Positions 20,352 through 36,744 are shown, counted from the first letter of the stretch. The stretch: DNA of 64,000 bases from Blastocatellia bacterium (GCA_963804815.1 CAWDRU010000002.1:4934780-4998779); one strand, 5' to 3'. Notes: generated by a model from the letters alone, not told the origin. Made by a program: numbers and translations.

Positions 20352-20566
20352 AACGTGAATTCGACATAAGAATCAGCCCTGAAAGGGCGAAATTCAATAG
20401 CACAGGGCATCGCCCTGTGTCGTACATCGTGAAATAAACCAAGTGATTTATTTCGCCCTTTCAGGGCTTGTGAGATGGTGGTGTTGCATACCGTGGGTTT
20501 CACCCACGGCTATTGAATTTCGCCCTTTCAGGGCTTTTACTTCGATTATTATGTCGAACTCGCGTT
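20352..20566 (+). mobile_element. MITE-like structured repeat, family A copy 1 (about 215 bp, internal about 24-bp deletion vs other copies)
   Basis: Terminal inverted repeats AACGTGAATTCGACATAAG ... ATTATGTCGAACTCGCGTT. Internal GCCCTGAAAGGGCGAAAT units in inverted pairs. Flanking AATGT direct duplication. Confidence 0.7.
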
Positions 20567-20767
20567 AATGTAGGCATTTAAAAATTCGAGATTCAAAATA
20601 AACACGACCCGAAGCGCCATTGCCTATTTGTTTTATTATGCAGTAAACGGTCTTTAGAATCAGATATTCACTTACACCCCATTACTGATTTCACACTTAT
20701 CCGGCCAGTTGCATCGAGACTAAAACTGTATGGTAACTGTCCCTATCTGGCGATCAAAATATTCCGG

Positions 20768-20905
20768 GCTGTAACAAAGTAACTGTAGGGGCAGGGCTTG
20801 TCCCTGCCCGGATCGCCGATAGGCGATGATCTGTCATGGCTTTCAGCCATTCGGGCAGGGACAAGCCCTGCCCCTACATTGATTGTCAACCGACTTTGTT
20901 ACAGC
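20768..20905. repeat. palindromic repeat family B copy 1 (BIME/REP-like), with 13-bp TIR GCTGTAACAAAGT and flanking 13-bp direct repeats CAAAATATTCCGG
   Basis: Inner arms TGTAGGGGCAGGGCTTGTCCCTGCCCGGATCGC / CCATTCGGGCAGGGACAAGCCCTGCCCCTACA are inverted relative to each other and each is itself a hairpin. Direct repeats at 20755-20767 and 20911-20923. Confidence 0.6.
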
Positions 20906-20975
20906 CCTGTCAAAATATTCCGGCAATTAGCGTTACGGATAGAGCGCCAGTTGGAATAATTAAAGCGTTAGGGGA

Positions 20976-22727
20976 TTATCGTTTCAAAGCGAAGCTTGCG
21001 TCGCGATAAACCTCTTTACCTTCTAACAAAGTGAGCAGCACTTTCGCATTGTGGATTTCGTGCGGCGCAATCTCAAACAGATTACGGTCCACGACTATCA
21101 GGTCGGCGGCTTTGCCCGTTTCAATCGAACCTGTCTCGGCCTCTTCAAAGTTCAGATACGCGCCGTTGATCGTATAGCCCGCAAGCATCGTTTCGAGATC
21201 AACTCGTTCTTCGGCAATCCACGCCTCTCCCGGCCCTTTATCAAGCCCTCTGCGCGTTATCGCTACCTGAATCGCATCGAGCGGGTTCATCGAAGTGACT
21301 GACCAGTCGCTGCCGCAAGCTATGACTGCGCCTGTTGCAGAAAGGCTGTGAATCGGGTAGAGCCATCGCGAGCGCTCAGGCCCAAGCACGGGCAGCGTAA
21401 GTTCCGTTATGTAAGTATCGGCATAAGCCCAGAGCGGCTGGAAGTTCGCAATGACGCCGAGTCGCCGAAAGCGCGGCACATCCTGCGGGTTGAAAAGTTC
21501 TATATGGGCTATCGTGTGCCGGGAGTCTCGGCTGCCGTTCTTTGAGCGGGCGAACTCGAAAGCGTCGAGCGCGTTTCTGATGGCCCTGTCGCCGATGGCA
21601 TGAACGTGGACTTGAAACCCTTCGCGGTCGAGCGCCGCGACCAGAGGATTGAATACATCAGGCTCGACGTTCGCCTTGCCGCGATCACCCTCAGTTCCGA
21701 CATAAGGCTCAAGCAACGCTGCTGTGCGGGCTTCGATCACGCCGTCCGCAAAGATCTTTACGGCAGTGGCGCGCAACCTGCGGCCCTGATACCGCTTTCT
21801 CATCTCTGCGAGGCGCGACACCTCTGCCGCGCCTTTCGACGTATCGACCGACAGCGCCGCGACGACTCGCGCAGTCAACTCGCCGCGACGGTCAAGTTCG
21901 GCGTAAGTTTTAAGATACGTTTCGCTCACACTTGCGTCCTGAAACGAAGTGATGCCGAAGCGATTTGCCATCTCAAGCCCGCGTCGAAGCCCTTTTGTGT
22001 AATCCTCAGTCGAATACTGAGGCAGGTGACGCTCGACAAGCGCCATCGCATCTTCGCGAAGCGTGCCCGTAGGCTCATTCGTCGCGGGGTCGCGCTCGAT
22101 GCGGCCCGGTTTCGGATCAGGCGTGTTTTTCGTTATTCCGGCAATTTCGAGAGCGCGCGAATTCGCCCACGCTGAATGGCCGTCGGCGGCATACAAAAAG
22201 ACAGGCCGGTCAGGAATCGTTTTGTCGAGACTGGATTTGTGCGGATTGGCATTTGGAAAAAGCGGAAGCTGCCAGCCCGACCCGCGAATCCACTTTTTCT
22301 GCGGGTTCTGCTCCGCGTACCGCCGAACAGCGTCAAGTATCTGCTGTTCGGAAGTAAGCTCGCTCAACTGGCATTCATCCATCTCTATGCCGCCCGACAC
22401 GACATGGACATGCGAGTCATGAAAGCTCGGCAACAGCATCCTGCCTCGTAAATCGACGACGACAGTCTGCGGGCCAATCCATTTTTGAGCCTTGCTGTCG
22501 GGGCCGACATAAACTATGCGGCCCTGGCTTACGGCTACGGTTTCAGCCCAACTGCGCGCTGCGTCGAGCGTGTAGACAGCGCCGTTGCGGAATATCAGGT
22601 CAGCAGTCTTTGTTGCGGGTTTCTGAGAGATGGCAAAAGCATTGCCTGACGAGAAGAGCACAAACAGGAGCAGGCTTGAAAGAGTTCGGCGCACGAGCAA
22701 CCTCCGAAAAGTGAAAGTGAGAAGCAC
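20976..22727 (-). CDS. secreted amidohydrolase-family metal-dependent hydrolase (amidohydrolase_3 / YtcJ-like)
   Basis: HDSHVHV near the N-terminus and HVHAIGDRA...HIELF later, typical of the amidohydrolase 3 family. Signal peptide. Confidence 0.7.
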   Translation of the reverse strand: MLLTFTFRRLLVRRTLSSLLLFVLFSSGNAFAISQKPATKTADLIFRNGAVYTLDAARSWAETVAVSQGRIVYVGPDSKAQKWIGPQTVVVDLRGRMLLPSFHDSHVHVVSGGIEMDECQLSELTSEQQILDAVRRYAEQNPQKKWIRGSGWQLPLFPNANPHKSSLDKTIPDRPVFLYAADGHSAWANSRALEIAGITKNTPDPKPGRIERDPATNEPTGTLREDAMALVERHLPQYSTEDYTKGLRRGLEMANRFGITSFQDASVSETYLKTYAELDRRGELTARVVAALSVDTSKGAAEVSRLAEMRKRYQGRRLRATAVKIFADGVIEARTAALLEPYVGTEGDRGKANVEPDVFNPLVAALDREGFQVHVHAIGDRAIRNALDAFEFARSKNGSRDSRHTIAHIELFNPQDVPRFRRLGVIANFQPLWAYADTYITELTLPVLGPERSRWLYPIHSLSATGAVIACGSDWSVTSMNPLDAIQVAITRRGLDKGPGEAWIAEERVDLETMLAGYTINGAYLNFEEAETGSIETGKAADLIVVDRNLFEIAPHEIHNAKVLLTLLEGKEVYRDASFALKR

Positions 22728-22840
22728 ATACTGTTGCGGGCCAAACAGTACCGAAAGCGATAGCGCCCGTGTAAAAAAAGATTGTTCGAGCTTGAATACA
22801 CCCGTGCGCTATCGCTTCCTGTACCGTCCTGCTTCCTGGC

Positions 22841-23887
22841 TCACTTCACCTTCTTCGCCTGAGCCTCCTGCCCGTTTACATTGAGATTCATGTGAGTCAC
22901 CTGACCTGTTGCATCTTTTACGAAAGTAATTTTCACTCCTACAGTCGGAACGTTAAAGACGGTCTCTGATTCAGCGATCAACTCTTCTTTCGTATCGTTG
23001 TTGGGCTGGCCGTAGAGCCGGTCGTTCTCTCTGGTTATATTGAGAGGCCCGAACGGAGTATCGTACTGTCCCACATAGGCGTCGAAATTTTTCGGATCAA
23101 CTTTGACGGCAGGCGGCGCAGACGCAGATGGCGTCGCCTTTGGCACGTCCACAACCTGCGAGGATGTCTGTGAAGCAAGACCCGACAATTGCGATGCGAC
23201 TACCTGCCAGCGACCGTTGCGCTTCACATATACATCCGTGTAGCGGTGCTGAAGGTTATAGTCCTGACCTTTTTGAGGCCCGTCCCGATAGGTCCCTCTC
23301 TGAATGACCTTGCCCGTCAGCACAGCCGTGTCGCCATAGATTCGCACCTTCGTATCGGCAGTCATAAATATAGGCGGCGCTCCTGCGGGAGCGGGATTTT
23401 TGAGTCTGGCTATTTCATCGGCCTTAGTCATGACTGTGCCATCAGAAAAGGTGATCGTAAAATCGTCTGCTTCTATGCGTTCCATTGCCGCCACATCGCG
23501 CTTTGTATAGGCGTCGAGCCATTCGCGCTCAAGCTTCAGCAGGTCCTGTTCGACAGAGCCTGCCTGAGTCGAGGGCGAAGCTGTGTCTGCGGGCTTTTTT
23601 GGCTCTTCGGCTTTCCTGTCTTCGACCTTCATGCCCGGCTTGTATTCGGCGAGCCATTCAATATCGATGGCGTCCGCGCCGCGCCGCGCCTTTTCTGATA
23701 TAAGCCACTGGCCGCGCTCGTTCCATGGCGCGCCGCCTTCGAGCGCTACGTGACAGAAGGTACAATCTTTCGCGCCGAACTTGCGTGCTTTGTTCAGGAA
23801 AAGCGGATAGCCGAACGACTCTCCCGCGAGCGCCGTAACAAAAGCCCCGACGAAAAAGAGCGCAATTGAAATTTTAATAGTCTTCAC
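22841..23887 (-). CDS. secreted protein: N-terminal CxxCH (cytochrome c-like) module fused to SnoaL-like/DUF4440 domains
   Basis: Signal peptide, then KDCTFCHV (CXXCH). Later segments (WLDAYTKRDVAAMERIEADDFTITFSDGTVMTKADEIARL) look NTF2/SnoaL-like. C-terminal beta domain. Confidence 0.5.
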   Translation of the reverse strand: MKTIKISIALFFVGAFVTALAGESFGYPLFLNKARKFGAKDCTFCHVALEGGAPWNERGQWLISEKARRGADAIDIEWLAEYKPGMKVEDRKAEEPKKPADTASPSTQAGSVEQDLLKLEREWLDAYTKRDVAAMERIEADDFTITFSDGTVMTKADEIARLKNPAPAGAPPIFMTADTKVRIYGDTAVLTGKVIQRGTYRDGPQKGQDYNLQHRYTDVYVKRNGRWQVVASQLSGLASQTSSQVVDVPKATPSASAPPAVKVDPKNFDAYVGQYDTPFGPLNITRENDRLYGQPNNDTKEELIAESETVFNVPTVGVKITFVKDATGQVTHMNLNVNGQEAQAKKVK

Positions 23888-23985
23888 CTTGACTCTCCCT
23901 TGCGTTTTAAAATATGTGCGGATAAATGACAGTATACACTACGAGCAAAACCGGGGTAGTTCAAGTCAGAGCTGTTGCGAGTAGA

Positions 23986-24104
23986 TGTAGGGGCAGGGCT
24001 TGTCCCTGCCCGGATCGCGAAGCGATGACAGACTTATAATTCGGTAGATTTCAAATCAATCATGGCCTTACGGCCATTCGGGCAGGGACAAGCCCTGCCC
24101 CTAC
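23986..24104. repeat. palindromic repeat family B copy 2 (inner arms only)
   Basis: TGTAGGGGCAGGGCTTGTCCCTGCCCGGATCGC ...57 nt... CCATTCGGGCAGGGACAAGCCCTGCCCCTAC. Lies between the stops of 22841..23887 and 24127..24906. Confidence 0.6.
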
Positions 24105-24126
24105 TATGCATTCAACCGAACTCGTT

Positions 24127-24906
24127 TCATCTGGCGCAGGTCAGCGCGCGACCGCCGTCGATGCCTATGGTTGCGCCTGTAATCCAGCTCGCGCGATCAG
24201 ATGCCAGAAAGCAGATCAACTCTGCGACCTCCCCGGCTTCGCCAACGCGACCGAGCGGGTGCGTGGTCTTACTGTGTTCGAGAAACGCTCGATAGGCATC
24301 CGCGTTCATTCCGCCCGAACGATGAAGACTGGTAACGACGACGCCCGGATTCACCGCGTTGACTCTGACACCTTTCGCGGCAAGCTCAAGCGCGGCGCAG
24401 CGTGTAAGCTGATCGAGTCCCGCTTTGCTCACGCAATAGGCCAGCACGCCCGGAAAAGAGCGCGGTCCGGTCACGCTCGACACGTTGACGATGTTTCCGC
24501 GCGAGCGTTCCAGATGGGGAACGGCCATCTGCATCAGGTGAAAGACCGAGCGCAGGTTGATGTTCATCATCTCGTCCCAAAGCTCAAGCGATGTCTCTTC
24601 TATGCGACCCGATTTGAGAATGCCCGCCGCATTGATTAACACATCAAGCCCGTCCATCATCTCAGCCCCTCGCGTCACGCAGGATTGGCTTTGCCTTTCA
24701 TCTGAAAGATCAGCCGCGATGATGAAAGCCTCTCCCTTATCGGCTGCCGCTTCATCCACAACGCGCTCAAGCGCGCTCTCGCTTCGGCTTACCAGCGTGA
24801 CGGTCGCGCCCGCGTTTAAGAAAAGCTTTGCCGTTGCGCGACCAATGCCGCTCGATGCGCCCGTCACTATAACTTTTTTTCGCGTTCTTTCTTCATGCAT
24901 AATCAC
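24127..24906 (-). CDS. SDR family oxidoreductase
   Basis: TGASSGIGRATA Rossmann motif, NAAG, and the YCVSK catalytic Tyr-x3-Lys. Confidence 0.85.
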   Translation of the reverse strand: MIMHEERTRKKVIVTGASSGIGRATAKLFLNAGATVTLVSRSESALERVVDEAAADKGEAFIIAADLSDERQSQSCVTRGAEMMDGLDVLINAAGILKSGRIEETSLELWDEMMNINLRSVFHLMQMAVPHLERSRGNIVNVSSVTGPRSFPGVLAYCVSKAGLDQLTRCAALELAAKGVRVNAVNPGVVVTSLHRSGGMNADAYRAFLEHSKTTHPLGRVGEAGEVAELICFLASDRASWITGATIGIDGGRALTCAR

Positions 24907-25111
24907 AGTCTGCTTATTGATCTGCTCAATGGCAAGCAGAAGTTTGTTTTAATCAATATGTAACATTCGCGTTACGTTTTATTAATAAAGCATTTATATA
25001 CTGAGCGTTCAATTCATATTTCCTTTACACCGGAGAGTGAAATATATCGCCTGTCCCTTCGCTGGTGATGTCGGGAACCAAACAAACCACTTCTATCTAT
25101 CTGGAGGAAAG

Positions 25112-26638
25112 ATGCAAAGCAGGTCAACAGTGCTGAGTTTAGTATTGATGCTCGCTCTCCTATTTTGTTTTGATAAGGCCGAGGCGAGAACGCAGCAACA
25201 ATCATCAGGCAACAACACAACAACCACAGACACGAGCGGGGCGTCAAAAGCCGCGCCTGCGCCTTCAGTTGAGGACAGGCTTCGCGCGCTCGAACAGGTA
25301 ATCGAACGACAACAGAACGAGATTCGATCTCTTCATGAGATGATAGACAAAGAAAAGCGCAATGCTGAAACCGCAAAGACCGACGCCGTCTCTGAAGCGC
25401 GTCAGCCCATAGTCGCCGCAGATCAAACTCCGGCTTCGGGCAAGAATGAAGCCGCGCCGCCCGACCAGACTCAGAAGCGAGTTGATGAGCTTTACAAGAA
25501 GTTCGGCGCGATTCGCTTCAGCGGCGACATTCGCTTTCGCACAGAGACGTTTCGCAATCAGGGCTTTGACAGCCTTGCCGAAGCGCCTGCGCGTAACCGG
25601 CTGCGGATGCGTGTGCGGCTTGCGCTCGACGGCTCGCTCAACAAGCATTTCGACTGGGGGGTCAAGCTGGCTTCCGGGATATTCACCGATCCGATATCGT
25701 CGAATCAGACCTTTACCGATTTCTTCGAGCGCAAGCCGTTTGCGCTCGAACGCGCCTTCGTTCGCTATGACTCGGTAGCGAGTGACAATGGGGCAGGCGT
25801 GCAACTGGTCGCGGGGAAATTCGAGCCGACCTTTCGCCGAACTCAGATGGTCTGGGACGACGATGTGAACGTTGAAGGCGCAAGCGAGGCGCTCTACTTC
25901 AAGTCAACTTCGAGCTTGAAGCAGATCAAGCTGGTCGCCTTCCAGTTGCCTTTCAATGAACTATCCGCCGCTAAAGACGGTGTGCTTTACGGCGGCCAGC
26001 TTCAAACCGACTGGCAATTTGCTCCGACGGTTTCAGCCAACGTCAATGCCTCTTATTACGCATGGAACAGGGCCGATCAGATCGCGCTTGGGCTTGGCGC
26101 GCTGGCGACTCAGGTCAACGGCGGAATCTTTAACGGCGCGGGGCTGACGGGCAATCAAAACGGCGCGCTCGGCACTTCAAATCGTCTCGTTAGAAATGCG
26201 AGCGGGAATGTTACGGGCTTTCTTGCCGGGTTCAATCTCTTTGACGTGCTCGGCAATCTGACATGGCAGGCAGGTCACAAAATCCCTGTGACTTTCACCT
26301 TTGACTATGTAAGGAATCTCTCAGACAGAATTGACGACGAAAAGAACGGTTACTGGGCAGGCGTACAGGTAGGCCAAACCAGAGAAGCGCACGACTGGAT
26401 GGTTGGCTATACATTCACGCGCATCGAGCAGGACGCCGTGCTTGTGCCGTTCAACTTCAGCGACATCCTCTCGTCCAACAGCCGCGCTCACATCCCGACT
26501 TTCGCCTATCAGGTTTCCAACGGCGTGACGTTGCAATGGACGGGGTTGTTCTCTCAGCGCGCGAACACAATCGTGCCGCTCTCCCCGGTCAATCGCTGGC
26601 TGAACAGAATGCAGTTCGACGCTATCTACAAATTCTGA
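25112..26638 (+). CDS. putative outer-membrane porin (N-terminal coiled coil + beta-barrel)
   Basis: GGAGG RBS. Signal peptide MQSRSTVLSLVLMLALLFCF. Coiled-coil VEDRLRALEQVIERQQNEIRSL. Alternating amphipathic beta-strands and a C-terminal aromatic residue (…IYKF). Confidence 0.5.
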   Translation: MQSRSTVLSLVLMLALLFCFDKAEARTQQQSSGNNTTTTDTSGASKAAPAPSVEDRLRALEQVIERQQNEIRSLHEMIDKEKRNAETAKTDAVSEARQPIVAADQTPASGKNEAAPPDQTQKRVDELYKKFGAIRFSGDIRFRTETFRNQGFDSLAEAPARNRLRMRVRLALDGSLNKHFDWGVKLASGIFTDPISSNQTFTDFFERKPFALERAFVRYDSVASDNGAGVQLVAGKFEPTFRRTQMVWDDDVNVEGASEALYFKSTSSLKQIKLVAFQLPFNELSAAKDGVLYGGQLQTDWQFAPTVSANVNASYYAWNRADQIALGLGALATQVNGGIFNGAGLTGNQNGALGTSNRLVRNASGNVTGFLAGFNLFDVLGNLTWQAGHKIPVTFTFDYVRNLSDRIDDEKNGYWAGVQVGQTREAHDWMVGYTFTRIEQDAVLVPFNFSDILSSNSRAHIPTFAYQVSNGVTLQWTGLFSQRANTIVPLSPVNRWLNRMQFDAIYKF

Positions 26639-26683
26639 GGTCGGACTCGGCTCTTTGGGAACAGTAAGCAATGATTCGGTGTC

Positions 26684-26720
26684 AAATGTAGAGCAGGCTT
26701 GAGGGCCTGCTCTACATTTG
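26684..26720 (+). terminator. terminator-like hairpin after porin gene
   Basis: caaatgtagagcaggc ttgagg gcctgctctacatttg (16-bp stem). No U-run. Confidence 0.45.
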
Positions 26721-28956: not shown

Positions 28957-30594
28957 CTAGACGGCGAGGTGTTCGACGCCGGGCAGAAACTGTGGCGCGC
29001 GACGGTGCTTCGTTGCCTGCTCGTAGGCGTAAGCCAGCTTTATCAGCACTGGCTCGCTGTAGGCTCTGCCCGCAAATGACAGGCCGACAGGCAGACCGGA
29101 AACATAGCCCGCCGGAACCGTGATGTGCGGATAGCCCGCTACTGCGCTCGCGGTCGAAAACCCGCCCGTGAAATGGTCGCCGTTAATCAGATCGGTCTTC
29201 CACGGCGGCCCGCCCGTAGGCGCAATCAGCGCATCGAGCCTGTGTTTTAGCATCACGGCATCAATGCCCTCGGTCCTTGAAAGCCGCAGGTTCTTTGCGA
29301 GCGCCTTTCGATATTCGGGGCTTGTGAGCGGCCCTTTGGCTTCGGCCCGAATCATGACTTCCTGTCCGAAGTAAGGCATCTCCTTTGCGCGATTCTGCTC
29401 GTTGAACTCGATTATCTCTTTCAGAGAATGGACAGGCGCGCGCGCGCCGAGGCTTGCGAGATAAGCATTCAAGTCTGCTTTGAATTCGTATAACAGCACC
29501 TCGAACTCCGAGTCATCGAACTTCCCTGCCGTTGGAATATCCGCCGGGTCAACGACCACTGCGCCGAGCCGCTTCATCACCTCGATGGACTCGTTCATCA
29601 GTTTGTCTACTCGCTCGCTAAAGCCGAAAGACTTTCTCATGACACCGATTCGCGCGCCTTTCATACCCGCAGGGTCGAGAAACTTTGTATAGTCGGTCAT
29701 CGATTTACCGCGACTCTGGTTCGTCGCAGAGTCGCGCGAATCGATTCCCGTGAGCGCGCCGAGCAACAGCGCGACGTCGGCAACAGATCGAGCCATCGGC
29801 CCTGCCGTGTCCTGGCTGTGAGCTATCGGAATTATGCCCGCGCGGCTGACCAGACCGAGCGTGGGTTTGATTCCGACGAGCGAATTTGATGACGAGGGAC
29901 AGACGATTGAACCATCCGTTTCCGTACCGATTGCTGCGGCGCAGAGATTGGCTGAAACCCCTGCGCCCGATCCGCTGCTTGATCCGCAGGGGTTTCGGTC
30001 CAGTGCGTAAGGGTTCTTTGTCAGCCCGCCGCGACCGCTCCATCCGCTCGTCGAATGACTCGATCTGAAGTTCGCCCATTCGCTCAGGTTCGTTTTGCCA
30101 AGCAGCACCGCTCCCGCCTGGCGAAGTCGCCCGGCTATAAACGCGTCTTTCGACGGAGTCGAACCGGCCAGCGCCAGCGAACCGGCAGTGGTCATCATCC
30201 GGTCGGCAGTATCGATGTTGTCTTTGATAAGTATTGGAATGCCGTGCAGCGGGCCGCGCGGGCCTTTCGCTTTTCGTTCACGGTCAAGCGCGTCGGCTAT
30301 TGACAGAGCATCGGGATTGATCTCGATCACAGAATTGATCGCAGGCCCATGTTTGTCTATCTCGTCAATGCGATCCAGATACATTTCCGTGATCTGCCGC
30401 GCGGTATATTTCCCCGACTTCATCGCTTCCTGCAAAGCAGCGATTGTTGTTTCTTCCAGATCAAATGGTTTCGCTGTTTGAGATGCTGAACTGCGTAAAA
30501 CAGGCGCGACTATAGCCATTGCGCCTGCCTGTAAAAATCGCCTGCGATTTCCTATTGAACCTGCACAGTTGTCTTTATTACTTTTGCCCATCAT
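28957..30594 (-). CDS. Tat-exported amidase (amidase-signature family)
   Basis: GSSSGSGAGVS amidase signature. Twin-arginine leader NRRRFLQAGAMAIVAPV. Start trimmed to MMGKSNKD. Confidence 0.8.
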   Translation of the reverse strand: MMGKSNKDNCAGSIGNRRRFLQAGAMAIVAPVLRSSASQTAKPFDLEETTIAALQEAMKSGKYTARQITEMYLDRIDEIDKHGPAINSVIEINPDALSIADALDRERKAKGPRGPLHGIPILIKDNIDTADRMMTTAGSLALAGSTPSKDAFIAGRLRQAGAVLLGKTNLSEWANFRSSHSTSGWSGRGGLTKNPYALDRNPCGSSSGSGAGVSANLCAAAIGTETDGSIVCPSSSNSLVGIKPTLGLVSRAGIIPIAHSQDTAGPMARSVADVALLLGALTGIDSRDSATNQSRGKSMTDYTKFLDPAGMKGARIGVMRKSFGFSERVDKLMNESIEVMKRLGAVVVDPADIPTAGKFDDSEFEVLLYEFKADLNAYLASLGARAPVHSLKEIIEFNEQNRAKEMPYFGQEVMIRAEAKGPLTSPEYRKALAKNLRLSRTEGIDAVMLKHRLDALIAPTGGPPWKTDLINGDHFTGGFSTASAVAGYPHITVPAGYVSGLPVGLSFAGRAYSEPVLIKLAYAYEQATKHRRAPQFLPGVEHLAV

Positions 30595-30746
30595 CACTCC
30601 CCTGAGAAGCGAATTTTTTGACTGCCTGCCAGAATGCCTTTTGGTATTGCTCAAGAATACCACTTCTGCTGCGTAATAAAAAAATCGCTCGCCGCACAAA
30701 GCGACGAGCGAACTTGAATTTACTTGAGGAAGTTAGTTTGGGTGGT

Positions 30747-33700
30747 TCAGAAATTCAAACGCAGCGCGAACTGAATCTGCCGGTTCGTTCCCAGCCCTAC
30801 GGTCTTTGCGACTGTCGAATTGACGATGCCGAACGTTCCCGCCGCCGCCGAGGTGAAAGCCTCTCCCGGTTGTAGCTGGTTCAATCCGGTTCCGAGCGCA
30901 TTTGGCAGCGTCACCGGAGGATTGGCAAAGTTCGCGCGGTTGAAGATGTTAAAAATCTCTGCGCGGAACTCCAGGTTAGCCGATTCTGTGACTCTGAATC
31001 GCTTCGTCGTTACAAGGTCGAACTGCTTGAAGTCCGGCCCGCGCAGCGCACCTCGTTTGAGATTGCCAAACTCTCCCGGCGCGGGGATAGCAAACGCCGC
31101 TGGGTTGATGAACGCAGTACCGTTGATGTGTATGTAAGGATCAACGCCGGGTATCAGATCGGGTCTTCGCACGTTGCGCGATGCGCCGCCGCCCGGCGTG
31201 TTGATGATCGCAGTGCGCCCTGCGGCTGGCGAGCTGAATATCTTGCCTGCCGCGTCACGATATACGACATCGGGTCGCGTGACGAGCACGCTCAGCGGCA
31301 CGCCGCTCCGCGCGTTGACTATAGTCCCGACTTCCCAGCCGCCCAGAAACATATCGCCAATGCCGTTGAGGTTGTTCATATACGCTCTGCCTCTGCCGAA
31401 CGGCAGCGCATAGAGCGCGCTCAAATTGAAGGTGTGGCGCACGTCGAACTGATTCCAGCCTTCGTCGTAATCGAAGCTGGCGGTCCTTCTTCCTGAGGGC
31501 GTTTCTGATGTTTCGCGCGCCAGATTGCCAGAGGTCAGCGCTTCGTTTGACCCTCCGGTGGTGCCGTAGCTTCTCGCGAACGTGTACTGCGCGTTGAGCG
31601 TCAGCCCCGTGTTGAAACGGCGACCGAGCGCCAGTTGCAGCGCGTTATAACTGTCGCGCCCGCCGCTCGTCTTGAAGTCGATTTCGGCAAACGGTCTCAG
31701 AATCGTGCTTCCCTGCACAATGTCGAACTCGCGAATCACTATCGCGTTGCCTGTCGGATTAGGATTGGTTCTTACTTCCACGATCTGGTTTGTGACGCTG
31801 CGCAAAAAGAGGTTGCGCCCCTGGCTGCCTACGTAAGCCGCTGTCAACACCATTTTGTAGAAAAGCTCCTGCTGCACAGAGAAGCTGTACTGAAAAACGC
31901 GCTCCGGGATGGCATAGTCAGGAGAGTATGCGCGCGGCTGGTACTGGCGATTGTCGGGGTTGTTGATGAAGTTATTTTTCAACAGGTTGGCATCGACCGG
32001 AAACGCGCCGCCGCTGAGGGTAGAAGATATGCGGTCGCTTTCAATCGGCTGAATCTGGTCTTCGGTCTGGCCCGGCCCGTAATATAGGCCAAAGCCTCCG
32101 CGAATAACTGTTCGACCGCCGCCGAAAAATCCCGACCCCATAGGGCTGGGCGACCATGTGGCCGCGACGCGCGGGCCGAAGTTGGATTTGTGAGATCCAA
32201 AGAACTCCTGCTTCGGATCGAGCAGCACGCCTCTTGTTATATCGAACTGCACGTTCAGGTCGTTCGCCTCGCGAAGCGGCGTGTAGTATTCGTATCGAAG
32301 CCCGTAGTTGAGCGTGAAATTCGGTTTGATCTTCCACTCGTCCTGCGCAAAGCCTATGTAGTATTCCTGTTCGGCCTTGCGATTGCCGACCGCTCCATTG
32401 TTGAACGGGCTGGGCTCGCTGAGGTCGCCGCTGAACTGTACCTGCTGCACTCTATTGGCGAGAAATTCCGTGATGTTCGAGTAGGTGTAGGTGATGCCGC
32501 CGAGCCTGTCCGTGTACATGCGGATCAAGCGCGCTTCGACTCCGAACTTTGCGTTGTGGCTCCCCTTCACCCACGACAGGTTATCAACGAAAGAGAGCGA
32601 GTAAGGCGTATACGGGAATCCGCGACCGTTGAACGCGCTGCTGCCGCGTATCAATCCGCCCGGTATGGCGATGCCTGAGCTTCCGCCCTGACCCGCGATG
32701 CCTGCGTTTGCGACAGCGCCTGAGATGTTGATTATGGCGTTCGACAGATCTATGCCGTTGACTACGGGCGCGATGCCGTTGACGCGCGACAGCGCTTCGT
32801 TGAAACCGAACTTGGCTTCGTTGATCGTGTTCGACGACAAGGCTCCCTGCAAAGAGAGCACCCCGTTTTGAGGGACGGAGGTGACGACGAGGCGGCGACC
32901 CGTGACGCCCTGCGGCTCATCGTTTTCGCCCTGATCGCGGAAGTAGCGCGCGTACATGGACCACCGCGAATTGAAGCGATAATCAAAGCGAAGCGCCACA
33001 GAGTTTTCATTCACCTTCTGGCTGGAATTGAGTTGCGCCAGTTCAAAATCGGGGCTTGCCGAACGGCCCGGCAGTATGACAGCGCCGGGGGCGAGAAATG
33101 TATCAACCACCGGTCTTATAGAAGCCACGGCCCGCGCGGCTGCCGCCGCCGACGGCACGGCTTCGAGAAAGTTGATGCCAGAACGCAAACGGTATCCTTC
33201 ATAGCTTCCAAAGAAGAACAATTTATCCTTGATAATGGGGCCGCCGATTGAGCCGCCAAACTGGTTGAGGCGCAGCGGCGACTTCATTGCGCCGTCGAAA
33301 AAGTTGCGCGCATCCAGAACATCATTGCGCAAAAACTCGAACAGCGAGCCGTGAAACCGGTTCCCGCCCGAACGGGTTACGACGCTGATCTGCCCGCCTG
33401 TTCCCGTGCCGTATTCTGCCGGGTAGCTGTTGGATTCGACGCGGAATTCCTGAACGTTTTCGAGGCTGGATTGAAGACGAAACGGAGACGGCAACTCGCC
33501 GTTGACGTTGCCGGGCGATGCGTCGATGATGGCCGACCCTTCGATGCCATCGTAGCGAATGGCGTTCTGCTCTACTGCGCGACCGCTGAAGCGGATGTCG
33601 CCGAAAGTGCCCGATCCGCTGTTTTGCGAGCCGGGCGCTTGCAGGTAGAGTTGCGAAAGCTGGCGGCCATTGATCGGAAGCCCGACCACTTCGCGCTCGC

Positions 33701-34136
33701 TGACGTTTGCGCCGATGCGCGCAGAGCTTGTATCGATTGCGGCTTCCTGTGTCCCGACGATTGTTATGCTCTCGGAAGTGCCTGATGGCTTAAGCTCGAT
33801 GTCGAGCGTAAGCTCCTGACCTACGGACAACTGAACATTGGTGAATTCAGCATTGCTGAACCCCTGCGCCTTACAGTTTATCGTGTAAAAAGATGGCTTC
33901 AGCGCTGTGACCAGGTATTGGCCCTGCTCCGTCGCATTGACTGCGCGCTCTTCGCCCGTGCGCTCGTTTTTTATGGTGATGCCTGCGCCGGGCACCACCG
34001 CATTAGACTGATCGCGGACTGTGCCGACGATGCGGCCCTGATCGGTTTGAGCCAGCGCGACAGCTTGAATGAACAGCTGCGCGAAGAGTGTGAGGGCGAG
34101 CATCAAGCTCACTGAAGTACTCTTTTTTCCTGCCAT
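30747..34136 (-). CDS. TonB-dependent receptor with N-terminal carboxypeptidase-regulatory-like domain
   Basis: 1129 aa. Signal peptide. GRIVGTVRDQSNAVVPGAGITIKN (CarbopepD_reg). C-terminal ...QIQFALRLNF barrel terminus. AGGAGG RBS. Confidence 0.8.
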   Translation of the reverse strand: MAGKKSTSVSLMLALTLFAQLFIQAVALAQTDQGRIVGTVRDQSNAVVPGAGITIKNERTGEERAVNATEQGQYLVTALKPSFYTINCKAQGFSNAEFTNVQLSVGQELTLDIELKPSGTSESITIVGTQEAAIDTSSARIGANVSEREVVGLPINGRQLSQLYLQAPGSQNSGSGTFGDIRFSGRAVEQNAIRYDGIEGSAIIDASPGNVNGELPSPFRLQSSLENVQEFRVESNSYPAEYGTGTGGQISVVTRSGGNRFHGSLFEFLRNDVLDARNFFDGAMKSPLRLNQFGGSIGGPIIKDKLFFFGSYEGYRLRSGINFLEAVPSAAAAARAVASIRPVVDTFLAPGAVILPGRSASPDFELAQLNSSQKVNENSVALRFDYRFNSRWSMYARYFRDQGENDEPQGVTGRRLVVTSVPQNGVLSLQGALSSNTINEAKFGFNEALSRVNGIAPVVNGIDLSNAIINISGAVANAGIAGQGGSSGIAIPGGLIRGSSAFNGRGFPYTPYSLSFVDNLSWVKGSHNAKFGVEARLIRMYTDRLGGITYTYSNITEFLANRVQQVQFSGDLSEPSPFNNGAVGNRKAEQEYYIGFAQDEWKIKPNFTLNYGLRYEYYTPLREANDLNVQFDITRGVLLDPKQEFFGSHKSNFGPRVAATWSPSPMGSGFFGGGRTVIRGGFGLYYGPGQTEDQIQPIESDRISSTLSGGAFPVDANLLKNNFINNPDNRQYQPRAYSPDYAIPERVFQYSFSVQQELFYKMVLTAAYVGSQGRNLFLRSVTNQIVEVRTNPNPTGNAIVIREFDIVQGSTILRPFAEIDFKTSGGRDSYNALQLALGRRFNTGLTLNAQYTFARSYGTTGGSNEALTSGNLARETSETPSGRRTASFDYDEGWNQFDVRHTFNLSALYALPFGRGRAYMNNLNGIGDMFLGGWEVGTIVNARSGVPLSVLVTRPDVVYRDAAGKIFSSPAAGRTAIINTPGGGASRNVRRPDLIPGVDPYIHINGTAFINPAAFAIPAPGEFGNLKRGALRGPDFKQFDLVTTKRFRVTESANLEFRAEIFNIFNRANFANPPVTLPNALGTGLNQLQPGEAFTSAAAGTFGIVNSTVAKTVGLGTNRQIQFALRLNF

Positions 34137-34270
34137 AAATGCCTCCTGTTGTTGTTTGCGGAATGTAGTTGTTTATCTCTTCAAGTGGTAAGACATAGTG
34201 ATGCAAGCGCGGAGTCTAGCAAGCTGCGGTTAAACGATTATGAAGCCAAAATTAAATCTTTGTTACAGGT

Positions 34271-34509
34271 AACGTGAATTCGACATAAGAATCAGCCCTG
34301 AAAGGGCGAAATTCAATAGCACAGGGCATCGCCCTGTGTTGCGCATCAAGAGCAACTACAAGCCCTGTAAGGGCGAAATAAACCAAGTGATTTATTTCGC
34401 CCTTACAGGGCTTGTGAGGTGGTGGCAATCATACCCGGCGCGATGCGCCGGGCTATTGAACTTCGCCCTTTCAGGGCTTTTACTTCGATTATTATGTCGA
34501 ACTCGCGTT
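34271..34509 (+). mobile_element. MITE-like structured repeat, family A copy 2 (full length about 239 bp)
   Basis: Same TIRs as copy 1. Flanked by ACAGGT direct duplication. Its internal hairpin is cccggcgc-gat-gcgccggg instead of ccgtgggt-ttc-acccacgg. Confidence 0.7.
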
Positions 34510-34615
34510 ACAGGTAGAGTTCAAATGTATTTAAGGTTTGATTAACAAACAGATAACCCTGTGACATTAAGCTTGCATCGGACAGGAAACCTTATGTGCA
34601 AAGTGCGAGCAAGCA

Positions 34616-34852
34616 ATGTCAAAGAGCCTGGAAGAATATGCAGTGGAGTTAGAGCGCAAGGCCCGGGAGAAAGCCCACGTCATCAGGCGTGTGGTCAAAG
34701 AATACAATGCGTGTCTTCAAGGCACGACCAGCGGTGATGCATATCAAATTCCCCGCAAGCAGCGCGAAATCGAGCGCGTGGTCGCCCAATACATTCAACT
34801 TTATAAGGCGCTCAAACGGTTGCGAAAAAAGATGCGCGCCAAGCGGGAGTAA
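34616..34852 (+). CDS. small hypothetical coiled-coil protein
   Basis: ORF only. Lys/Arg/Glu-rich. Confidence 0.35.
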   Translation: MSKSLEEYAVELERKAREKAHVIRRVVKEYNACLQGTTSGDAYQIPRKQREIERVVAQYIQLYKALKRLRKKMRAKRE

Positions 34853-34881
34853 TAGTTTAAAGATTTGTCAGGAGGCAGGAA

Positions 34882-35277
34882 ATGACAGACAAGAGATCAG
34901 CATATGATCGATGCGTAGCAGAGCTTGAAATGGCTCAGATGATGTTAAACCAGATAGCCAGCAAACAGGACGCTCCGGCTGAAGATATTCACAAAGCGGC
35001 AGTCGAAGCCAAGAAACTCGAAATCCAACTGGCCGCAACTAAACTTGCGCAGGCCGATTATCACCTCGACGCTCTGAAAGCGCGGCTCGACTTTCTGAGT
35101 GCCCGTGTGGCTGCCGCAGGCGGCCCGTCGAAAAGAGAGCAGGCGGAACTTGAGTGGGCGCGCACGGCAGTGCCCATTAACAGTTCAACCGTCGCGAGGC
35201 TTGCAAACGAGCTTGAAGAACGCAAACAGGAACTGGTAGAGATGATCAGCTTCGCTTCCAAAGACGCGGCGGCCTGA
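34882..35277 (+). CDS. hypothetical coiled-coil protein
   Basis: ORF with a plausible GGAGG-like RBS (caggaggcaggaaATG). Followed by a strong terminator. Confidence 0.4.
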   Translation: MTDKRSAYDRCVAELEMAQMMLNQIASKQDAPAEDIHKAAVEAKKLEIQLAATKLAQADYHLDALKARLDFLSARVAAAGGPSKREQAELEWARTAVPINSSTVARLANELEERKQELVEMISFASKDAAA

Positions 35278-35310
35278 ACGCTCCGGTCGCTTTATAGAAT
35301 CATCTATTTT

Positions 35311-35351
35311 GACCCTGAAAGAGTCGCTCTTTCAGGGTCACACGTTTTTTT
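35311..35351 (+). terminator. rho-independent terminator
   Basis: gaccctgaaagag tcgc tctttcagggtc followed by ACACGTTTTTTT. Confidence 0.65.
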
Positions 35352-35933
35352 AGGCGGCGATGCTCACGATTGCCTGCGCATAGTGTTACATTAAAACTCA
35401 CCCTGAACAGATCACCAGTTCAAAAAAGAATAAGCGCGGCGTAACAGAGGTTGGGTGGGTTCTGTTGCGCCGCGCACAGGGAATCAATCCGACCGCGCGC
35501 TCTTTGTTCGCCAGAGGTGTGACGCGCGGTATCAGGTCTACCGATTTCGGAAAGAAGATGTTCGTAGATTAACCCGGCCTCGTTAGATAACAATTACGCA
35601 ATTGTTAAATAATCGTATCATCTGCATCCGATTTTATGGTTACTTCGGGGCATTAAATGAAGAATTTTTGTATTTCCGAAGCGAGTTTACACTCTGTTAT
35701 TGTGAATGGCTAAAAAGATATCGAAGCAGAGAGCTTATCAGTTAAGACATAAAAAGGCGGGTCTGTGCGCCCGCTGCTCAGAGGCGGCTGTAAACGGGAC
35801 TCACTGCGAGAAACACAGGGAGATGATTAATCGCATTTCCCGTGAAAGCATGAGGCGTCGCAAAGATTCCAAGCCTCAGGCCTGAGACTAGATACTTCTT
35901 TTCCCGCCCCTCGAAGCGATATTTATCGCGCTA

Positions 35934-36371
35934 TTAATTCTCTTTAAGCGCCCGCCTGCTTTTCTGCTCTACCCACGCGCCTGTTGCCGCGAATTTTTCG
36001 ATCAGCTTGTGATAATCCGAACGGTAAAGCAGCTTGATATTTACTTCCGGGTAATGCTGGCGCAGCAATCGTACTTTGCGATTCTTGGCCGTTACGAGCT
36101 TCTGTTTCAGCGTAGTCAATTCGATATAAATGTCGTGCTGAGGCAGATAGAAATCAGGCGTGAAGCCGTTGACGAAATTGCCTTCATCATCCCATTCGAT
36201 GGCAAAGGTGCGCGGCTCGTAATGCCAGGCTATCTGGTAAAAGTCGAGTATGCGCGCAAACTCTTCTTCGGATGGATGAGCGAACTCCACATGCCGCCGC
36301 TCGGCAAAGTGAACAGAGGTCTTATGCGGGCTGAGATTGCCAATCGGTTCTTCAAAATAAGATGTGGTCAT
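35934..36371 (-). CDS. hypothetical protein (possible PD-(D/E)xK-like nuclease fold?)
   Basis: ORF. GFTPDFYLPQHDIYIELTTLKQK loosely resembles a D...E.K nuclease core. Weak. Confidence 0.35.
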   Translation of the reverse strand: MTTSYFEEPIGNLSPHKTSVHFAERRHVEFAHPSEEEFARILDFYQIAWHYEPRTFAIEWDDEGNFVNGFTPDFYLPQHDIYIELTTLKQKLVTAKNRKVRLLRQHYPEVNIKLLYRSDYHKLIEKFAATGAWVEQKSRRALKEN

Positions 36372-36504
36372 ATAACGCTCCTTGTCCTGCTGGCGCGCAA
36401 CTTACGATCAGGGGGAAAGCGTCACGCGCTTCAAGAGGTTTAACCGAGTGATTAGACAGCATAAAGCCTGAAAGTTAGATGGCTATGTCCTTACTTTTAA
36501 TTTT

Positions 36505-36744
36505 AACGCGAGTTCGACATAATGATCGAAGTAAAAGCCCTGAAAGGGCGAAATTCAATAGCCGTGGGTGAAACCCACGGTATGCAACGCCACTACCACA
36601 CAAGCCCTGTAAGGGCGAAATAAACCAAGTGATTTATTTCGCCCTTACAGGGCTTGTAGTTTATCTTGATGCGCAACACAGGGCGATGCCCTGTGCTATT
36701 GAATTTCGCCCTTTCAGGGCTGATTATTATGTCGAATTCACGTT
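36505..36744 (-). mobile_element. MITE-like structured repeat, family A copy 3 (inverted orientation)
   Basis: Reverse complement matches copies 1 and 2 end to end. Flanked by AATTTT direct duplication. Confidence 0.7.

What the first reader, a model, noticed from the sequence alone, without database searches (positions are those of the whole stretch)
20352..36744. Structured MITE-like element family, three copies with independent target-site duplications and a compensatory hairpin variant
Three 215-240 bp copies lie at 20352-20566(+), 34271-34509(+) and 36505-36744(-). They share about 20-bp terminal inverted repeats AACGYGARTTCGACATAAG. Internally there are four 18-nt GCCCTG(A/T)AAGGGCGAAAT units in two inverted pairs and a central long palindrome caagccctgtaagggcgaaataaacc...tttatttcgcccttacagggcttg. 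Each copy is flanked by a different short direct duplication (AATGT, ACAGGT, AATTTT), which is the signature of separate transposition events. Copy 2 replaces the hairpin ccgtgggt-ttc-acccacgg with cccggcgc-gat-gcgccggg, so the structure is preserved but the sequence changed. That argues the fold, as DNA cruciform or RNA, is under selection. Copy 1 carries an internal roughly 24-bp deletion. Three copies in 64 kb suggests a genome-wide high-copy element that is probably unannotated.
Basis: seen in the sequence. Interest (0 to 1): 0.7.

Follow-up and report, generated by a model that had tools for sequence, protein, structure and literature searches.

The report
IS982-type MITE carrying Acido-Lenti-1 hairpins
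The three repeats are real copies of a small non-coding jumping element that uses the ends of the IS982 insertion-sequence family, and its internal hairpins are the orphan Rfam motif "Acido-Lenti-1"; this is a tidy annotation result, not a new kind of biology.

Summary
Three 213-240 bp copies lie at 20352-20566(+), 34271-34509(+) and 36505-36744(-). They have exact 18-bp terminal inverted repeats (TIRs), and each copy has its own flanking duplication.

The TIR (AACGYGARTTCGACATAA) is the end of a subgroup of IS982-family insertion sequences. It occurs exactly in more than 114 genome loci across many phyla, where it bounds about 1-kb elements encoding IS982 transposases and many 140-480 bp MITEs. 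IS982 ends conventionally start at "AC". Counted from there, the window duplications are TAATGTA, TACAGGTA and TAATTTTA (7-8 bp). That fits the 6-8 bp TA...TA duplications of relatives and the published IS982 range of 2-10 bp.

The window comes from a Blastocatellia (Acidobacteriota) MAG and encodes no IS982 transposase, so the copies are non-autonomous.

Each copy carries two mirrored matches to Rfam RF01687 (Acido-Lenti-1) around a central palindrome. The "compensatory" hairpin of copy 2 is stem 1 of that motif. It sits in a roughly 45-nt replaced patch and also occurs in soil metagenome copies, so it is a swapped allele, not in-situ compensation.

Stem 1 covaries strongly, but almost only by Watson-Crick pairs and with loop flips. 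This fits DNA-level palindromes at least as well as an RNA. IS982-derived MITEs are already described.

Verdict: a new member of a known kind.

The parts
20346..20352 (.). Copy 1 target-site duplication, left (TAATGTA)
   Evidence: identical 7-mer at 20566-20572.
20353..20565 (+). MITE copy 1 (213 bp from AC to GT). It has a 25-bp internal deletion that removes the left arm of the central palindrome.
20566..20572 (.). Copy 1 target-site duplication, right (TAATGTA)
20375..20419 (-). Copy 1 left-arm Acido-Lenti-1 module (hp1 CACAGGGC-gat-GCCCTGTG, linker CTATTGAATTTC, hp2 GCCCTttcAGGGC)
   Evidence: RF01687, 42.0 bits against a gathering score of 37.
20491..20535 (+). Copy 1 right-arm Acido-Lenti-1 module (hp1 CCGTGGGT-ttc-ACCCACGG)
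   Evidence: RF01687, 43.5 bits.
34264..34271 (.). Copy 2 target-site duplication, left (TACAGGTA)
   Evidence: identical 8-mer at 34509-34516.
34272..34508 (+). MITE copy 2 (237 bp), full length. It lies in the divergent intergenic region 135 bp upstream of the TonB-dependent receptor gene (30747-34136, - strand).
   Evidence: RNA fold -149.7 kcal/mol, z = -16.2.
34509..34516 (.). Copy 2 target-site duplication, right (TACAGGTA)
34272..34289 (+). Copy 2 left TIR, ACGTGAATTCGACATAAG (IS982-type end starting with AC)
34294..34338 (-). Copy 2 left-arm Acido-Lenti-1 module
   Evidence: RF01687, 42.0 bits, full-length match.
34358..34415 (.). Copy 2 central palindrome (24-bp arms built from the same GCCCTGTAAGGGCGAAAT unit, 8-nt loop CCAAGTGA)
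   Evidence: and family D3.
34434..34478 (+). Copy 2 right-arm Acido-Lenti-1 module with the alternative stem-1 allele CCCGGCGC-gat-GCGCCGGG
   Evidence: 41.7 bits. Patch-like replacement shown. The same stem occurs in L119 and L084.
34491..34508 (-). Copy 2 right TIR (ACGCGAGTTCGACATAAT read inward)
36498..36505 (.). Copy 3 target-site duplication (TAATTTTA on the + strand)
   Evidence: identical 8-mer at 36744-36751.
36506..36743 (-). MITE copy 3 (238 bp), inverted relative to copies 1 and 2. It lies in the divergent intergenic region between the ORF at 35934-36371 (- strand) and the DUF979 operon.
   Evidence: DNA fold -91.9 kcal/mol, z = -18.6.
36744..36751 (.). Copy 3 target-site duplication, other side (TAATTTTA)
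36536..36580 (-). Copy 3 Acido-Lenti-1 module (hp1 CCGTGGGT...)
   Evidence: 43.5 bits.
36600..36657 (.). Copy 3 central palindrome. On the + strand it is 100% identical to copy 2's, so it is flipped relative to the body of its own element.
   Evidence: and family D3.
36677..36721 (+). Copy 3 Acido-Lenti-1 module (hp1 CACAGGGC...)
   Evidence: 42.0 bits.

Best explanation

**Shown**
- The 18-19 bp TIRs are those of a widespread IS982 subgroup.
- Each copy is bracketed by its own 7-8 bp TA...TA duplication in an AT-rich intergenic site.
- No transposase is encoded in the element or anywhere in the 64-kb window.

**Inferred**
- A DDE transposase of an IS982 element elsewhere in this Blastocatellia genome binds the TIRs in trans.
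- It then inserts the element with a staggered cut of 7-8 bp.

**The interior**
- It is not a remnant of the transposase gene.
- It is a palindromic cassette: two mirrored 'Acido-Lenti-1' modules flanking a long central palindrome built from the same unit. Each module is an 8-bp variable hairpin, a CTA linker, and a 5-bp GCCCT/AGGGC hairpin.
- The whole element can fold back so that the two TIRs pair.
- The hairpin modules are exchanged between family members by patchwise recombination or gene conversion, and their loops can invert.
- I infer that the hairpins are kept as DNA-level palindromes. This could be through self-templated repair or template switching, or because fold-back or cruciform extrusion helps the element. 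I do not think they are a free-standing sRNA gene. Effects on read-through transcripts, such as stabilisation or termination, remain possible.
For: **The repeats are real**
- The TIR and the internal unit are far above chance.
- Software finds a distinct duplication for each copy.

**The ends are IS982 ends**
- The TIR is exact in more than 114 loci from many phyla.
- It bounds about 1-kb elements whose ORF scores 250.7 bits on NF033520, 'IS982 family transposase', against a cutoff of 130.
- An intact 290-aa IS982 transposase in a Pyrinomonadaceae (Blastocatellia) MAG is flanked by AACGTGAGTTCGACGTAAG and AACGTGAGTTCGGCGTAAG, matching the window MITE's left TIR at 16 and 15 of 18 positions.
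- 50 two-ended elements carry this TIR. 29 have duplications of 5-8 bp, and nearly all of those are TA...TA.
- Published IS982 features match: IR of 11-32 bp, a start at AC, the pattern AC(N)6T, and DR of 2-10 bp (PMC7335449).
- A roughly 240-bp IS982-derived MITE is already described in Cardinium (PMC9769881).

**The copies are non-autonomous**
- tblastn finds no IS982 transposase in the window (E > 1).

**The interior is a separate cassette**
- There are six RF01687 hits, two mirrored per copy.
- The same blueprint occurs in other Acidobacteriota MITEs: L037, L084, L030, L080 and L022.
- Full-length IS982 elements have no such hits.

**The hairpins are conserved**
- Stem 1 covaries: 7 of 8 pairs change on both sides and 95.8% of cells are paired. 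The covariation score is 0.523 against 0.146 in shuffles, with 0 of 500 shuffles reaching it.

**Modules are exchanged and loops flip**
- The differences between copies 2 and 3 cluster in one patch.
- The central loop is flipped in copy 3.
Against:
- **No empty site.** Every other assembly I could reach (L129, L130, L132, L133) is the same population and has the same insertions.
- **Longer duplications than relatives.** The window duplications (7, 8 and 8 bp) are at the long end of the 6-7 bp seen in relatives.
- **Cassette is not tied to these ends.**
  - It occurs with no IS982 TIR in L121.
  - It occurs with a different inverted repeat in L117 and L122.
  - It occurs one-ended in L118 and L119.
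  - None of the 89 original Acido-Lenti-1 representatives has the TIR core in its flanks.
  - So the cassette is not intrinsically an IS982 feature, and something else may also move or amplify it.
- **Hairpin role is not settled.** No result here shows what the hairpins do.
Confidence: 0.88

Rival explanations
1. The elements are primarily carriers of a functional structured RNA, the Rfam 'Acido-Lenti-1 sRNA'. The hairpins would be selected at the RNA level as a trans-acting sRNA, a terminator/insulator or an mRNA-stability element. The MITE would merely disperse them.
For: - Six matches exceed the Rfam gathering score (41.7-43.5 against 37).
- Stem 1 covaries strongly.
- The right-arm hp2 is followed by TTTT and is picked up by the terminator-like scan.
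- MITE transcripts are known to form stable hairpins, and some give rise to sRNAs (PMC10969869).
Against: - The modules are mirrored on both strands of every copy, so no single strand is favoured.
- Only one G-U cell appears among the 120 stem-1 cells, and the one C-A mismatch in the same sequence (L117) would be a G-U on the opposite strand. The pairing is Watson-Crick and symmetric, as expected of DNA palindromes.
- Loops invert: GAT versus ATC on the same stem, and the central loop as well.
- No promoter signal exceeds the shuffle expectation.
- The spacing between hp2 and the TIR varies from about 1 to 16 nt among relatives.
- The literature reports no function.
Confidence: 0.15
2. The hairpin cassette is a REP/REPIN-like element, a palindrome with a TAG-type head, mobilised or amplified by a RAYT-type HUH/Y1 transposase. 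The IS982 TIRs would be a secondary acquisition that is not what moves these copies.
For: - Stem 1 is always followed by CTA(T/C). This reads as (A/G)TAG plus a hairpin on the other strand, the same geometry as REP heads. The comparison with REP rests on my own knowledge.
- The cassette occurs without IS982 TIRs and in tandem (L121, L120, and Lentisphaera arrays with periods of 69-200 nt).
- The same genome holds a separate GTAG-headed REPIN-like repeat at 20778-20877 and 23980-24104.
Against: - All three window copies end precisely at IS982 TIRs and have perfect 7-8 bp duplications. REP/REPIN spread does not produce these.
- Identity between copies extends through the TIRs and stops exactly there.
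- No RAYT-like ORF was found in the window, although the query was recalled from memory and the test is weak.
Confidence: 0.06
3. Assembly artefact or collapsed repeat, or a chance similarity.
For: - Palindromic repeats do cause assembly trouble. L116 is a fold-back contig.
- The Logan short-read contigs break inside every copy they reach.
Against: - The three copies have different flanks and different duplications, and differ at 25-47 aligned positions.
- Junctions are reproduced in independent assemblies, 100% for copies 2 and 3 and 99.94% across copy 1.
- Chance expectation is 0.2 hits against 6 and 11 observed.
Confidence: 0.01

Closest known systems
IS982-family insertion sequences (Fayad, Kallassy Awad & Mahillon 2020, PMC7335449)
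   Same: - The TIRs start with AC and fit AC(N)6T.
- TIR length of 18-19 bp lies within the published 11-32 bp.
- Duplications of 7-8 bp lie within the published 2-10 bp.
- An identical TIR bounds about 1-kb elements that encode NF033520 transposases.
   Different: - There is no transposase gene, and the length is 213-238 bp instead of about 1 kb.
- The interior is unrelated to the IS. Full-length elements have no Acido-Lenti-1 hits.
MITECca01/02, IS982-derived MITEs of Cardinium (Halter et al. 2022, PMC9769881)
   Same: - About 240 bp, with IS982-type inverted repeats and no transposase.
- Multi-copy and mostly intergenic.
- Presumed to be mobilised in trans by a parental IS982 element.
   Different: - The Cardinium MITEs retain sequence derived from the parental ISCca4 next to the IR. 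The window element instead carries an unrelated palindromic hairpin cassette.
- The host phylum differs (Acidobacteriota rather than Bacteroidota).
- A parental IS has not been identified here.
Rfam RF01687 Acido-Lenti-1 RNA motif (Weinberg et al. 2010, PMC2864571)
   Same: - The two-hairpin architecture is the same: an 8-bp covarying stem, a G-CUA linker, and a 5-bp stem.
- Scores exceed the gathering threshold.
- The host is an acidobacterium.
   Different: - The original representatives are solitary (Koribacter) or in direct tandem arrays (Lentisphaera), and their flanks lack the IS982 TIR core.
- Here the motif comes as mirrored pairs inside a TIR- and duplication-bounded transposon.
- Stem 1 has a 3-nt loop here and 4 nt in most seed sequences.
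Structured bacterial MITEs in general (Correia/NEMIS, ERIC, RUP, Coxiella QMITE; review PMC10969869)
   Same: - Short and TIR-bounded, with target duplications.
- AT-rich intergenic targets.
- The transcript or single strand folds into a very stable long hairpin.
   Different: - The transposase family differs.
- The interior is modular, with interchangeable hairpin alleles and a flipping central loop.
REP/REPIN elements mobilised by RAYTs
   Same: - Short GC-rich hairpins with a conserved head next to the stem.
- Arranged as inverted pairs, highly repeated, and variable between lineages.
   Different: - REP/REPINs have no TIRs of an IS family and make no target duplications.
- No RAYT was found in the window.

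Membership tests
IS982 family (as a non-autonomous derivative) | Terminal inverted repeats begin with 5'-AC and fit AC(N)6T (PMC7335449) | tested here: met
   The ends read ACGTGAATTCGACATAAG and ACGCGAGTTCGACATAAT. The further '(N)5TT' part of the published pattern reads TA here, so that part is only partly matched.
IS982 family (as a non-autonomous derivative) | The same TIR bounds elements that encode an IS982-family DDE transposase | tested here: met
   - L075 and L008 carry an exact TIR, and their ORF scores 250.7 bits on NF033520 against a cutoff of 130.
- The L123 left TIR (Pyrinomonadaceae MAG) and the L124 left TIR (unassigned soil metagenome contig) match at 16 of 18 positions.
IS982 family (as a non-autonomous derivative) | Direct target repeats of variable length, 2-10 bp | tested here: met
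   The window duplications are 7, 8 and 8 bp. Relatives have 5-8 bp.
IS982 family (autonomous IS) | Roughly 1 kb long and encoding its own transposase | tested here: not met
   The copies are 213-238 bp with no ORF. tblastn with an IS982 transposase finds nothing in the window (E > 1). They are therefore MITEs and not insertion sequences.
IS982 family (as a non-autonomous derivative) | A cognate active transposase is present in the same genome | not testable with these tools
   Only 64 kb plus short flanks of the 7.92-Mb contig were reachable. IS982 transposases do exist in Pyrinomonadaceae, which belongs to Blastocatellia.
MITE (general definition, PMC10969869) | Under about 300 bp, with TIRs, target-site duplications and no coding capacity, in several copies, at AT-rich intergenic sites, and with a stable fold-back | tested here: met
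   z = -16.2; z = -18.6.
MITE (general definition) | Demonstrated mobility, meaning an empty site in a related genome or experimental transposition | not testable with these tools
   Every other assembly found carries the same insertions.
Rfam RF01687 Acido-Lenti-1 | Covariance-model score at or above the gathering threshold (37 bits) over the full model | tested here: met
   Six hits at 41.7-43.5 bits, each covering model positions 1-46.
Rfam RF01687 Acido-Lenti-1 | Two hairpins supported by covariation | tested here: met
   On 15 modules, 7 of 8 stem-1 pairs and 2 of 5 stem-2 pairs change on both sides, and 95.9% of cells are paired.
Rfam RF01687 Acido-Lenti-1 | Expressed and functional as an RNA (Rfam type 'sRNA') | not testable with these tools
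   No expression data are available. The near-absence of G-U pairs and the mirrored strands argue weakly against it.
REP/REPIN | Spread without target-site duplication, and association with a RAYT gene | tested here: not met
   All three copies have perfect 7-8 bp duplications. No RAYT-like ORF was found in the window, although that test is weak.
Integron attC / cassette array | Same-orientation sites with RYYYAAC...GTTRRRY cores next to cassettes and an integrase | tested here: not met
   Copy 3 is inverted, each copy has its own duplication, and the flanking genes are ordinary chromosomal genes.

The most novel reading that the evidence does not exclude
Acido-Lenti-1 would not be an sRNA gene. 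It would be a REP-like, DNA-level palindromic module that recombines freely, with hairpin 'alleles', loop flips and tandem amplification. It would have been captured repeatedly between different transposon ends, including the IS982 ends seen here. On this reading, Acidobacteriota IS982-type MITEs keep the blueprint TIR-hp2-CTA linker-hp1...hp1-linker-hp2-TIR because fold-back or cruciform extrusion of the cassette promotes their own transposition or persistence.
Probability: 0.25. Interest if true: 0.55.

Novelty: new member of a known kind. Interest (0 to 1): 0.35.

Why it matters
**Annotation.** The result names the transposase family that should move a repeat found in Blastocatellia and other soil Acidobacteriota genomes. 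It also explains why short-read assemblies of this organism break at these sites.

**An orphan Rfam family.** As late as 2026 the literature says 'little is known' about RF01687. In this lineage its matches are subterminal hairpin modules of a MITE. Automatic 'ncRNA' calls for this family should therefore be read with caution.

**Gene expression.** Copies 2 and 3 sit in divergent promoter regions, one of them upstream of a TonB-dependent receptor gene. IS982 elements are known to alter expression of neighbouring genes (PMC7335449), so effects here are possible but untested.

**Limits.** None of this changes how MITEs or IS982 are understood.

Tried and rejected
- **Weak TIR-like hits.** The hits at 6347 (2 mismatches) and 41986 (3 mismatches) have no partner end and no internal modules. 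I treat them as chance.
- **L051 and L043 as autonomous elements.** Each holds two TIRs about 4 kb apart, and I first considered them large autonomous elements. L051 encloses a RecQ-like gene and other ORFs, so it is two separate ends.
- **Transposase in the same MAG.** The search for homologous proteins and cluster look-ups gave a Pyrinomonadaceae IS982 transposase, but nothing with this assembly's accession series.
- **Empty insertion sites.** I fetched other assemblies through flanking proteins. All are the same population and carry the same insertions.
- **IS982 TIR next to the original Acido-Lenti-1 seeds.** There are no occurrences in Weinberg's flanked alignment. The simple idea that 'Acido-Lenti-1 = IS982 MITE end' is therefore rejected as a general statement.
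- **L116 as evidence for a different 50-bp TIR.** This is rejected. The inverted repeat runs into the flanking coding sequence and to the contig end, so it is a fold-back contig.
- **Promoter scan around copies 2 and 3.** It found no more sites than in shuffles.
- **RAYT search in the window.** The query was recalled from memory and found nothing. This is a weak test.
- **attC and CRISPR readings.** Both are rejected on orientation, the presence of duplications, and the lack of arrays.

Full report

Yes. Reading the three loci and aligning them shows three copies of one element at 20352-20566(+), 34271-34509(+) and 36505-36744(-).
- The TIR pattern AACGYGARTTCGACATAA matches exactly six times in the window, once at each end of each copy. 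Dinucleotide-preserving shuffles give 0.21.
- The 18-nt unit GCCCTGWAAGGGCGAAAT matches 11 times against 0.15 expected. That is four units in copies 2 and 3 and three in copy 1.
- Copy 1 lacks 25 bp, which removes one arm of the central palindrome.
- Copy 2 has cccggcgc-gat-gcgccggg where the other two have ccgtgggt-ttc-acccacgg.
- The copies have unrelated flanks and differ from each other at 25-47 aligned positions, counting the 25-bp deletion in copy 1.
- Independent assemblies of the same organism (Logan SRR28022924 and GCA_049590935.1) reproduce the junctions. Those for copies 2 and 3 are 100% identical and GCA_049590935.1 spans copy 1 at 99.94%. The Logan short-read contigs stop 27-28 nt inside a copy, which is the usual behaviour at a repeat.
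- This is not an artefact.

**2. What are the ends?**

The hits come from Bacteroidota, Acidobacteriota, Nitrosomonas, Legionella, Leptospira, cyanobacteria, Poribacteria and others. The sequence just inside the TIR is very diverse.
- Where two inward-facing TIRs lie about 1 kb apart, they enclose an ORF that scores 250.7 bits on NCBIfam NF033520, 'IS982 family transposase', against a cutoff of 130. Examples are L075 and L008.
- An intact 290-aa IS982 transposase annotated in a Pyrinomonadaceae MAG (MBD0326943.1) is flanked by AACGTGAGTTCGACGTAAG and AACGTGAGTTCGGCGTAAG. A close relative occurs on a soil metagenome contig with no taxonomic assignment (L124).
- The window itself comes from a 'Blastocatellia bacterium' MAG on a 7.92-Mb contig.
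- The 2020 review of the family gives IR of 11-32 bp, ends starting with AC in 57 of 69 members, the pattern AC(N)6T(N)5TT, and direct repeats of 2-10 bp (PMC7335449).
- Taking AC as the first base, the window elements are 20353-20565, 34272-34508 and 36506-36743. Their duplications are TAATGTA, TACAGGTA and TAATTTTA.
- Among 50 two-ended elements with this TIR in the fetched loci, 29 have duplications of 5-8 bp, mostly 6-7 bp. Nearly all start and end with TA, for example TAATTA, TATTTA and TAAATTA. Element sizes fall into two classes: 138-480 bp MITEs and 920-1030 bp full insertion sequences.
- tblastn with an IS982 transposase finds nothing in the 64-kb window.

The three copies are therefore non-autonomous IS982-type MITEs. 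IS982-derived MITEs of about 240 bp are already described in Cardinium (PMC9769881). Their general features match the prokaryotic MITE definition (PMC10969869).

**3. What is the interior?**

An Rfam scan of the window returns only six matches, all to RF01687 'Acido-Lenti-1' at 41.7-43.5 bits against a gathering score of 37.
- There are two matches per copy, mirrored. One is on the minus strand just inside the left TIR and one is on the plus strand just inside the right TIR.
- Each module has three parts: an 8-bp hairpin with a 3-nt loop (hp1), the linker CTATTGAAYTTC, and the 5-bp hairpin GCCCT-ttc-AGGGC (hp2).
- Between the modules lies a 58-nt palindrome built from the same GCCCTGTAAGGGCGAAAT unit.
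- A single strand of the whole element folds so that TIR pairs with TIR and unit with unit. The hp1 hairpins and the central palindrome form branches. The RNA fold is -149.7 kcal/mol (z = -16.2) and the DNA fold is -91.9 kcal/mol (z = -18.6).
- Other Acidobacteriota MITEs with the same TIR have the same blueprint and about the same length (236-276 bp), but different hairpin sequences. These are L037, L084 and the Pyrinomonadales elements L030, L080 and L022.
- Full-length IS982 elements have no RF01687 hits, so the cassette is not a relic of the parent IS.

**4. Is the cassette an IS982 feature?**

No.
- A metagenome scan for the unit plus linker found seven soil contigs. In these the cassette appears with a full or truncated IS982 TIR on only one side (L119, L118), with no TIR (L121), with a different inverted repeat GAGAAGCTGTTTRAAAAG (L117, L122), and with tandem modules (L120).
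- L116 is a fold-back contig and says nothing about the ends.
- Weinberg's original alignment has 89 representatives from Lentisphaera (often in direct tandem arrays), Koribacter (solitary), Rhodopirellula, Geobacter uraniireducens and metagenomes. It contains no IS982 TIR core in the flanks.
- The original paper says only that the motif is sometimes near group II introns. A 2026 preprint still states that little is known about it.

The hairpin module is thus a repeat in its own right. In this lineage it rides inside IS982-type MITEs.

**5. The 'compensatory' hairpin.**

Across 15 distinct modules, hp1 shows changes on both sides in 7 of 8 pairs, with 95.8% of cells paired. The covariation score is 0.523 against 0.146 in shuffles, with 0 of 500 shuffles reaching it. 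Slid controls give at most 0.105. The hairpin is conserved as a structure.
- The copy 2 variant is not local. 17 of the 25 differences between copies 2 and 3 lie in one roughly 45-nt tract covering the spacer, hp1 and the linker. Four more are the loop flip, and only four lie elsewhere.
- The same CCCGGCGC stem occurs in L119 and L084. The CCGTGGGT and CACAGGGC stems also recur in soil contigs in other combinations. This looks like allele shuffling by recombination or gene conversion.
- Pairing is almost purely Watson-Crick. Only one G-U cell appears among the 120 stem-1 cells. The one C-A mismatch in the same sequence would be a G-U on the opposite strand, so no strand is favoured.
- Loops invert. 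The same stem carries GAT in the window and ATC in L119. The 56-nt centre of copy 3 is the exact reverse complement of copy 2's in the element frame. On the + strand the two centres are 100% identical over 58 nt (family D3).

Such flips are what recombination between palindrome arms, template switching, or gene conversion between oppositely oriented copies would produce. They point to DNA-level processes. An RNA role is not excluded, but nothing here requires it.

**6. Mechanism, and what is shown versus inferred.**
- Shown: IS982-type ends, independent duplications, no coding capacity, intergenic AT-rich targets, and a modular palindromic interior shared with related MITEs.
- Inferred: mobilisation in trans by an IS982 DDE transposase encoded elsewhere in the genome, with a 7-8 bp staggered cut.
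- Speculative: that fold-back or cruciform extrusion of the cassette benefits the element, or that the hairpins act on read-through transcripts. The right-arm hp2 is followed by TTTT. The variable distance between hp2 and the TIR argues against a fixed protein-binding architecture.

**7. Rivals.**
- Functional sRNA: 0.15, and not exclusive of the main explanation.
- REP/REPIN-like element moved by a RAYT: 0.06. In its favour are the CTA(T/C) head geometry and the TIR-less and tandem occurrences. Against it are the perfect duplications and the identity that stops exactly at the TIRs. No RAYT was found in the window (a weak test).
- Artefact or chance: 0.01.

**8. Novelty and score.**

The element is a new member of a known kind, the IS982-derived MITEs. 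The useful extra is that an orphan Rfam 'sRNA' family turns out, in this lineage, to be the subterminal hairpin module of a transposon. A specialist would find this neat but not surprising. Interest: 0.35.

Not established: genome-wide copy number, a cognate transposase in the same genome, empty sites, expression, and any function of the hairpins.

Noticed in passing
window 20778-20877 and 23980-24104: A second palindromic repeat family lies here. Each copy has two inverted 26-nt units, GTAGGGGCAGGGCTTGTCCCTGCCCG, which is a GTAG head followed by an 8-bp hairpin. This resembles a REPIN. One copy lies about 210 bp from MITE copy 1.
   Followed up: partly
window 20916 / L129 9321: The other assembly of the same organism (GCA_049590935.1, contig JBAWDW010000290.1) is colinear with window 11597-20916 at 99.94%. 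It then diverges just after the REPIN-like element, into a 1250-aa TonB-type receptor gene instead of the amidohydrolase. This is either a rearrangement or a misjoin at a repeat.
   Followed up: partly
window 35310-35340: A 14-bp-stem hairpin, TGACCCTGAAAGAGTC/GCTCTTTCAGGGTCA, is followed by a T-run shortly after the stop of the ORF at 34882-35277. It looks like a terminator. Its stem resembles the GACCCTGAAAGGGTC units in the central palindromes of soil copies L116 and L121.
   Followed up: no
window 20427-20471, 34358-34415, 36600-36657: On the + strand all three copies read the central loop as AAACCAAGTGATTT, although copy 3 is inverted. This could be chance (about 1 in 4), gene conversion between nearby copies, or an orientation bias.
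   Followed up: partly
L115, L130, L133 (Logan SRR28022924): Every short-read contig that reaches a MITE copy ends 27-28 nt inside it (L133 at both of its ends). The element therefore fragments short-read assemblies of this organism.
   Followed up: yes
L116 660-1016: This soil metagenome contig folds back on itself around the palindromic cassette. The 172-nt arms include flanking coding sequence and run to the contig end, so it is a chimeric assembly caused by the palindrome.
   Followed up: yes
L101, L050, L056, L064, L094 (Legionella spp.): Very small elements of about 65-150 bp carry the same IS982-type TIR. In them the inner part of the TIR (GACATAAA...) pairs with an adjacent inverted copy.
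   Followed up: no
Weinberg 2010 seed alignment (PMC2864571, supplementary file 183): In Lentisphaera araneosa the Acido-Lenti-1 motif occurs in direct tandem arrays with periods of 69-200 nt. Many stem-1 pairs there are A-C on the annotated strand, which would be G-U on the opposite strand. This raises doubt about the annotated strand.
   Followed up: no
L122 2760-3060, L117 5930-6000: Cassette copies without the IS982 TIR are bounded by GAGAAGCTGTTTRAAAAG. In frame with the adjacent coding sequence this reads ...EKLF(E/K)K. The element may abut or extend ORFs.
   Followed up: no
window 35934-36371 (-): The 145-aa ORF next to copy 3 has a weak, sub-threshold match to Phage_endo_I (22.4 bits against a cutoff of 29.1).
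   Followed up: no
window 63369-63980: A tandem repeat with a 51/102-nt period (8 copies, 63-73% identity) lies inside the ORF at 62717-63991 (- strand) at the window end (family D1).
   Followed up: no
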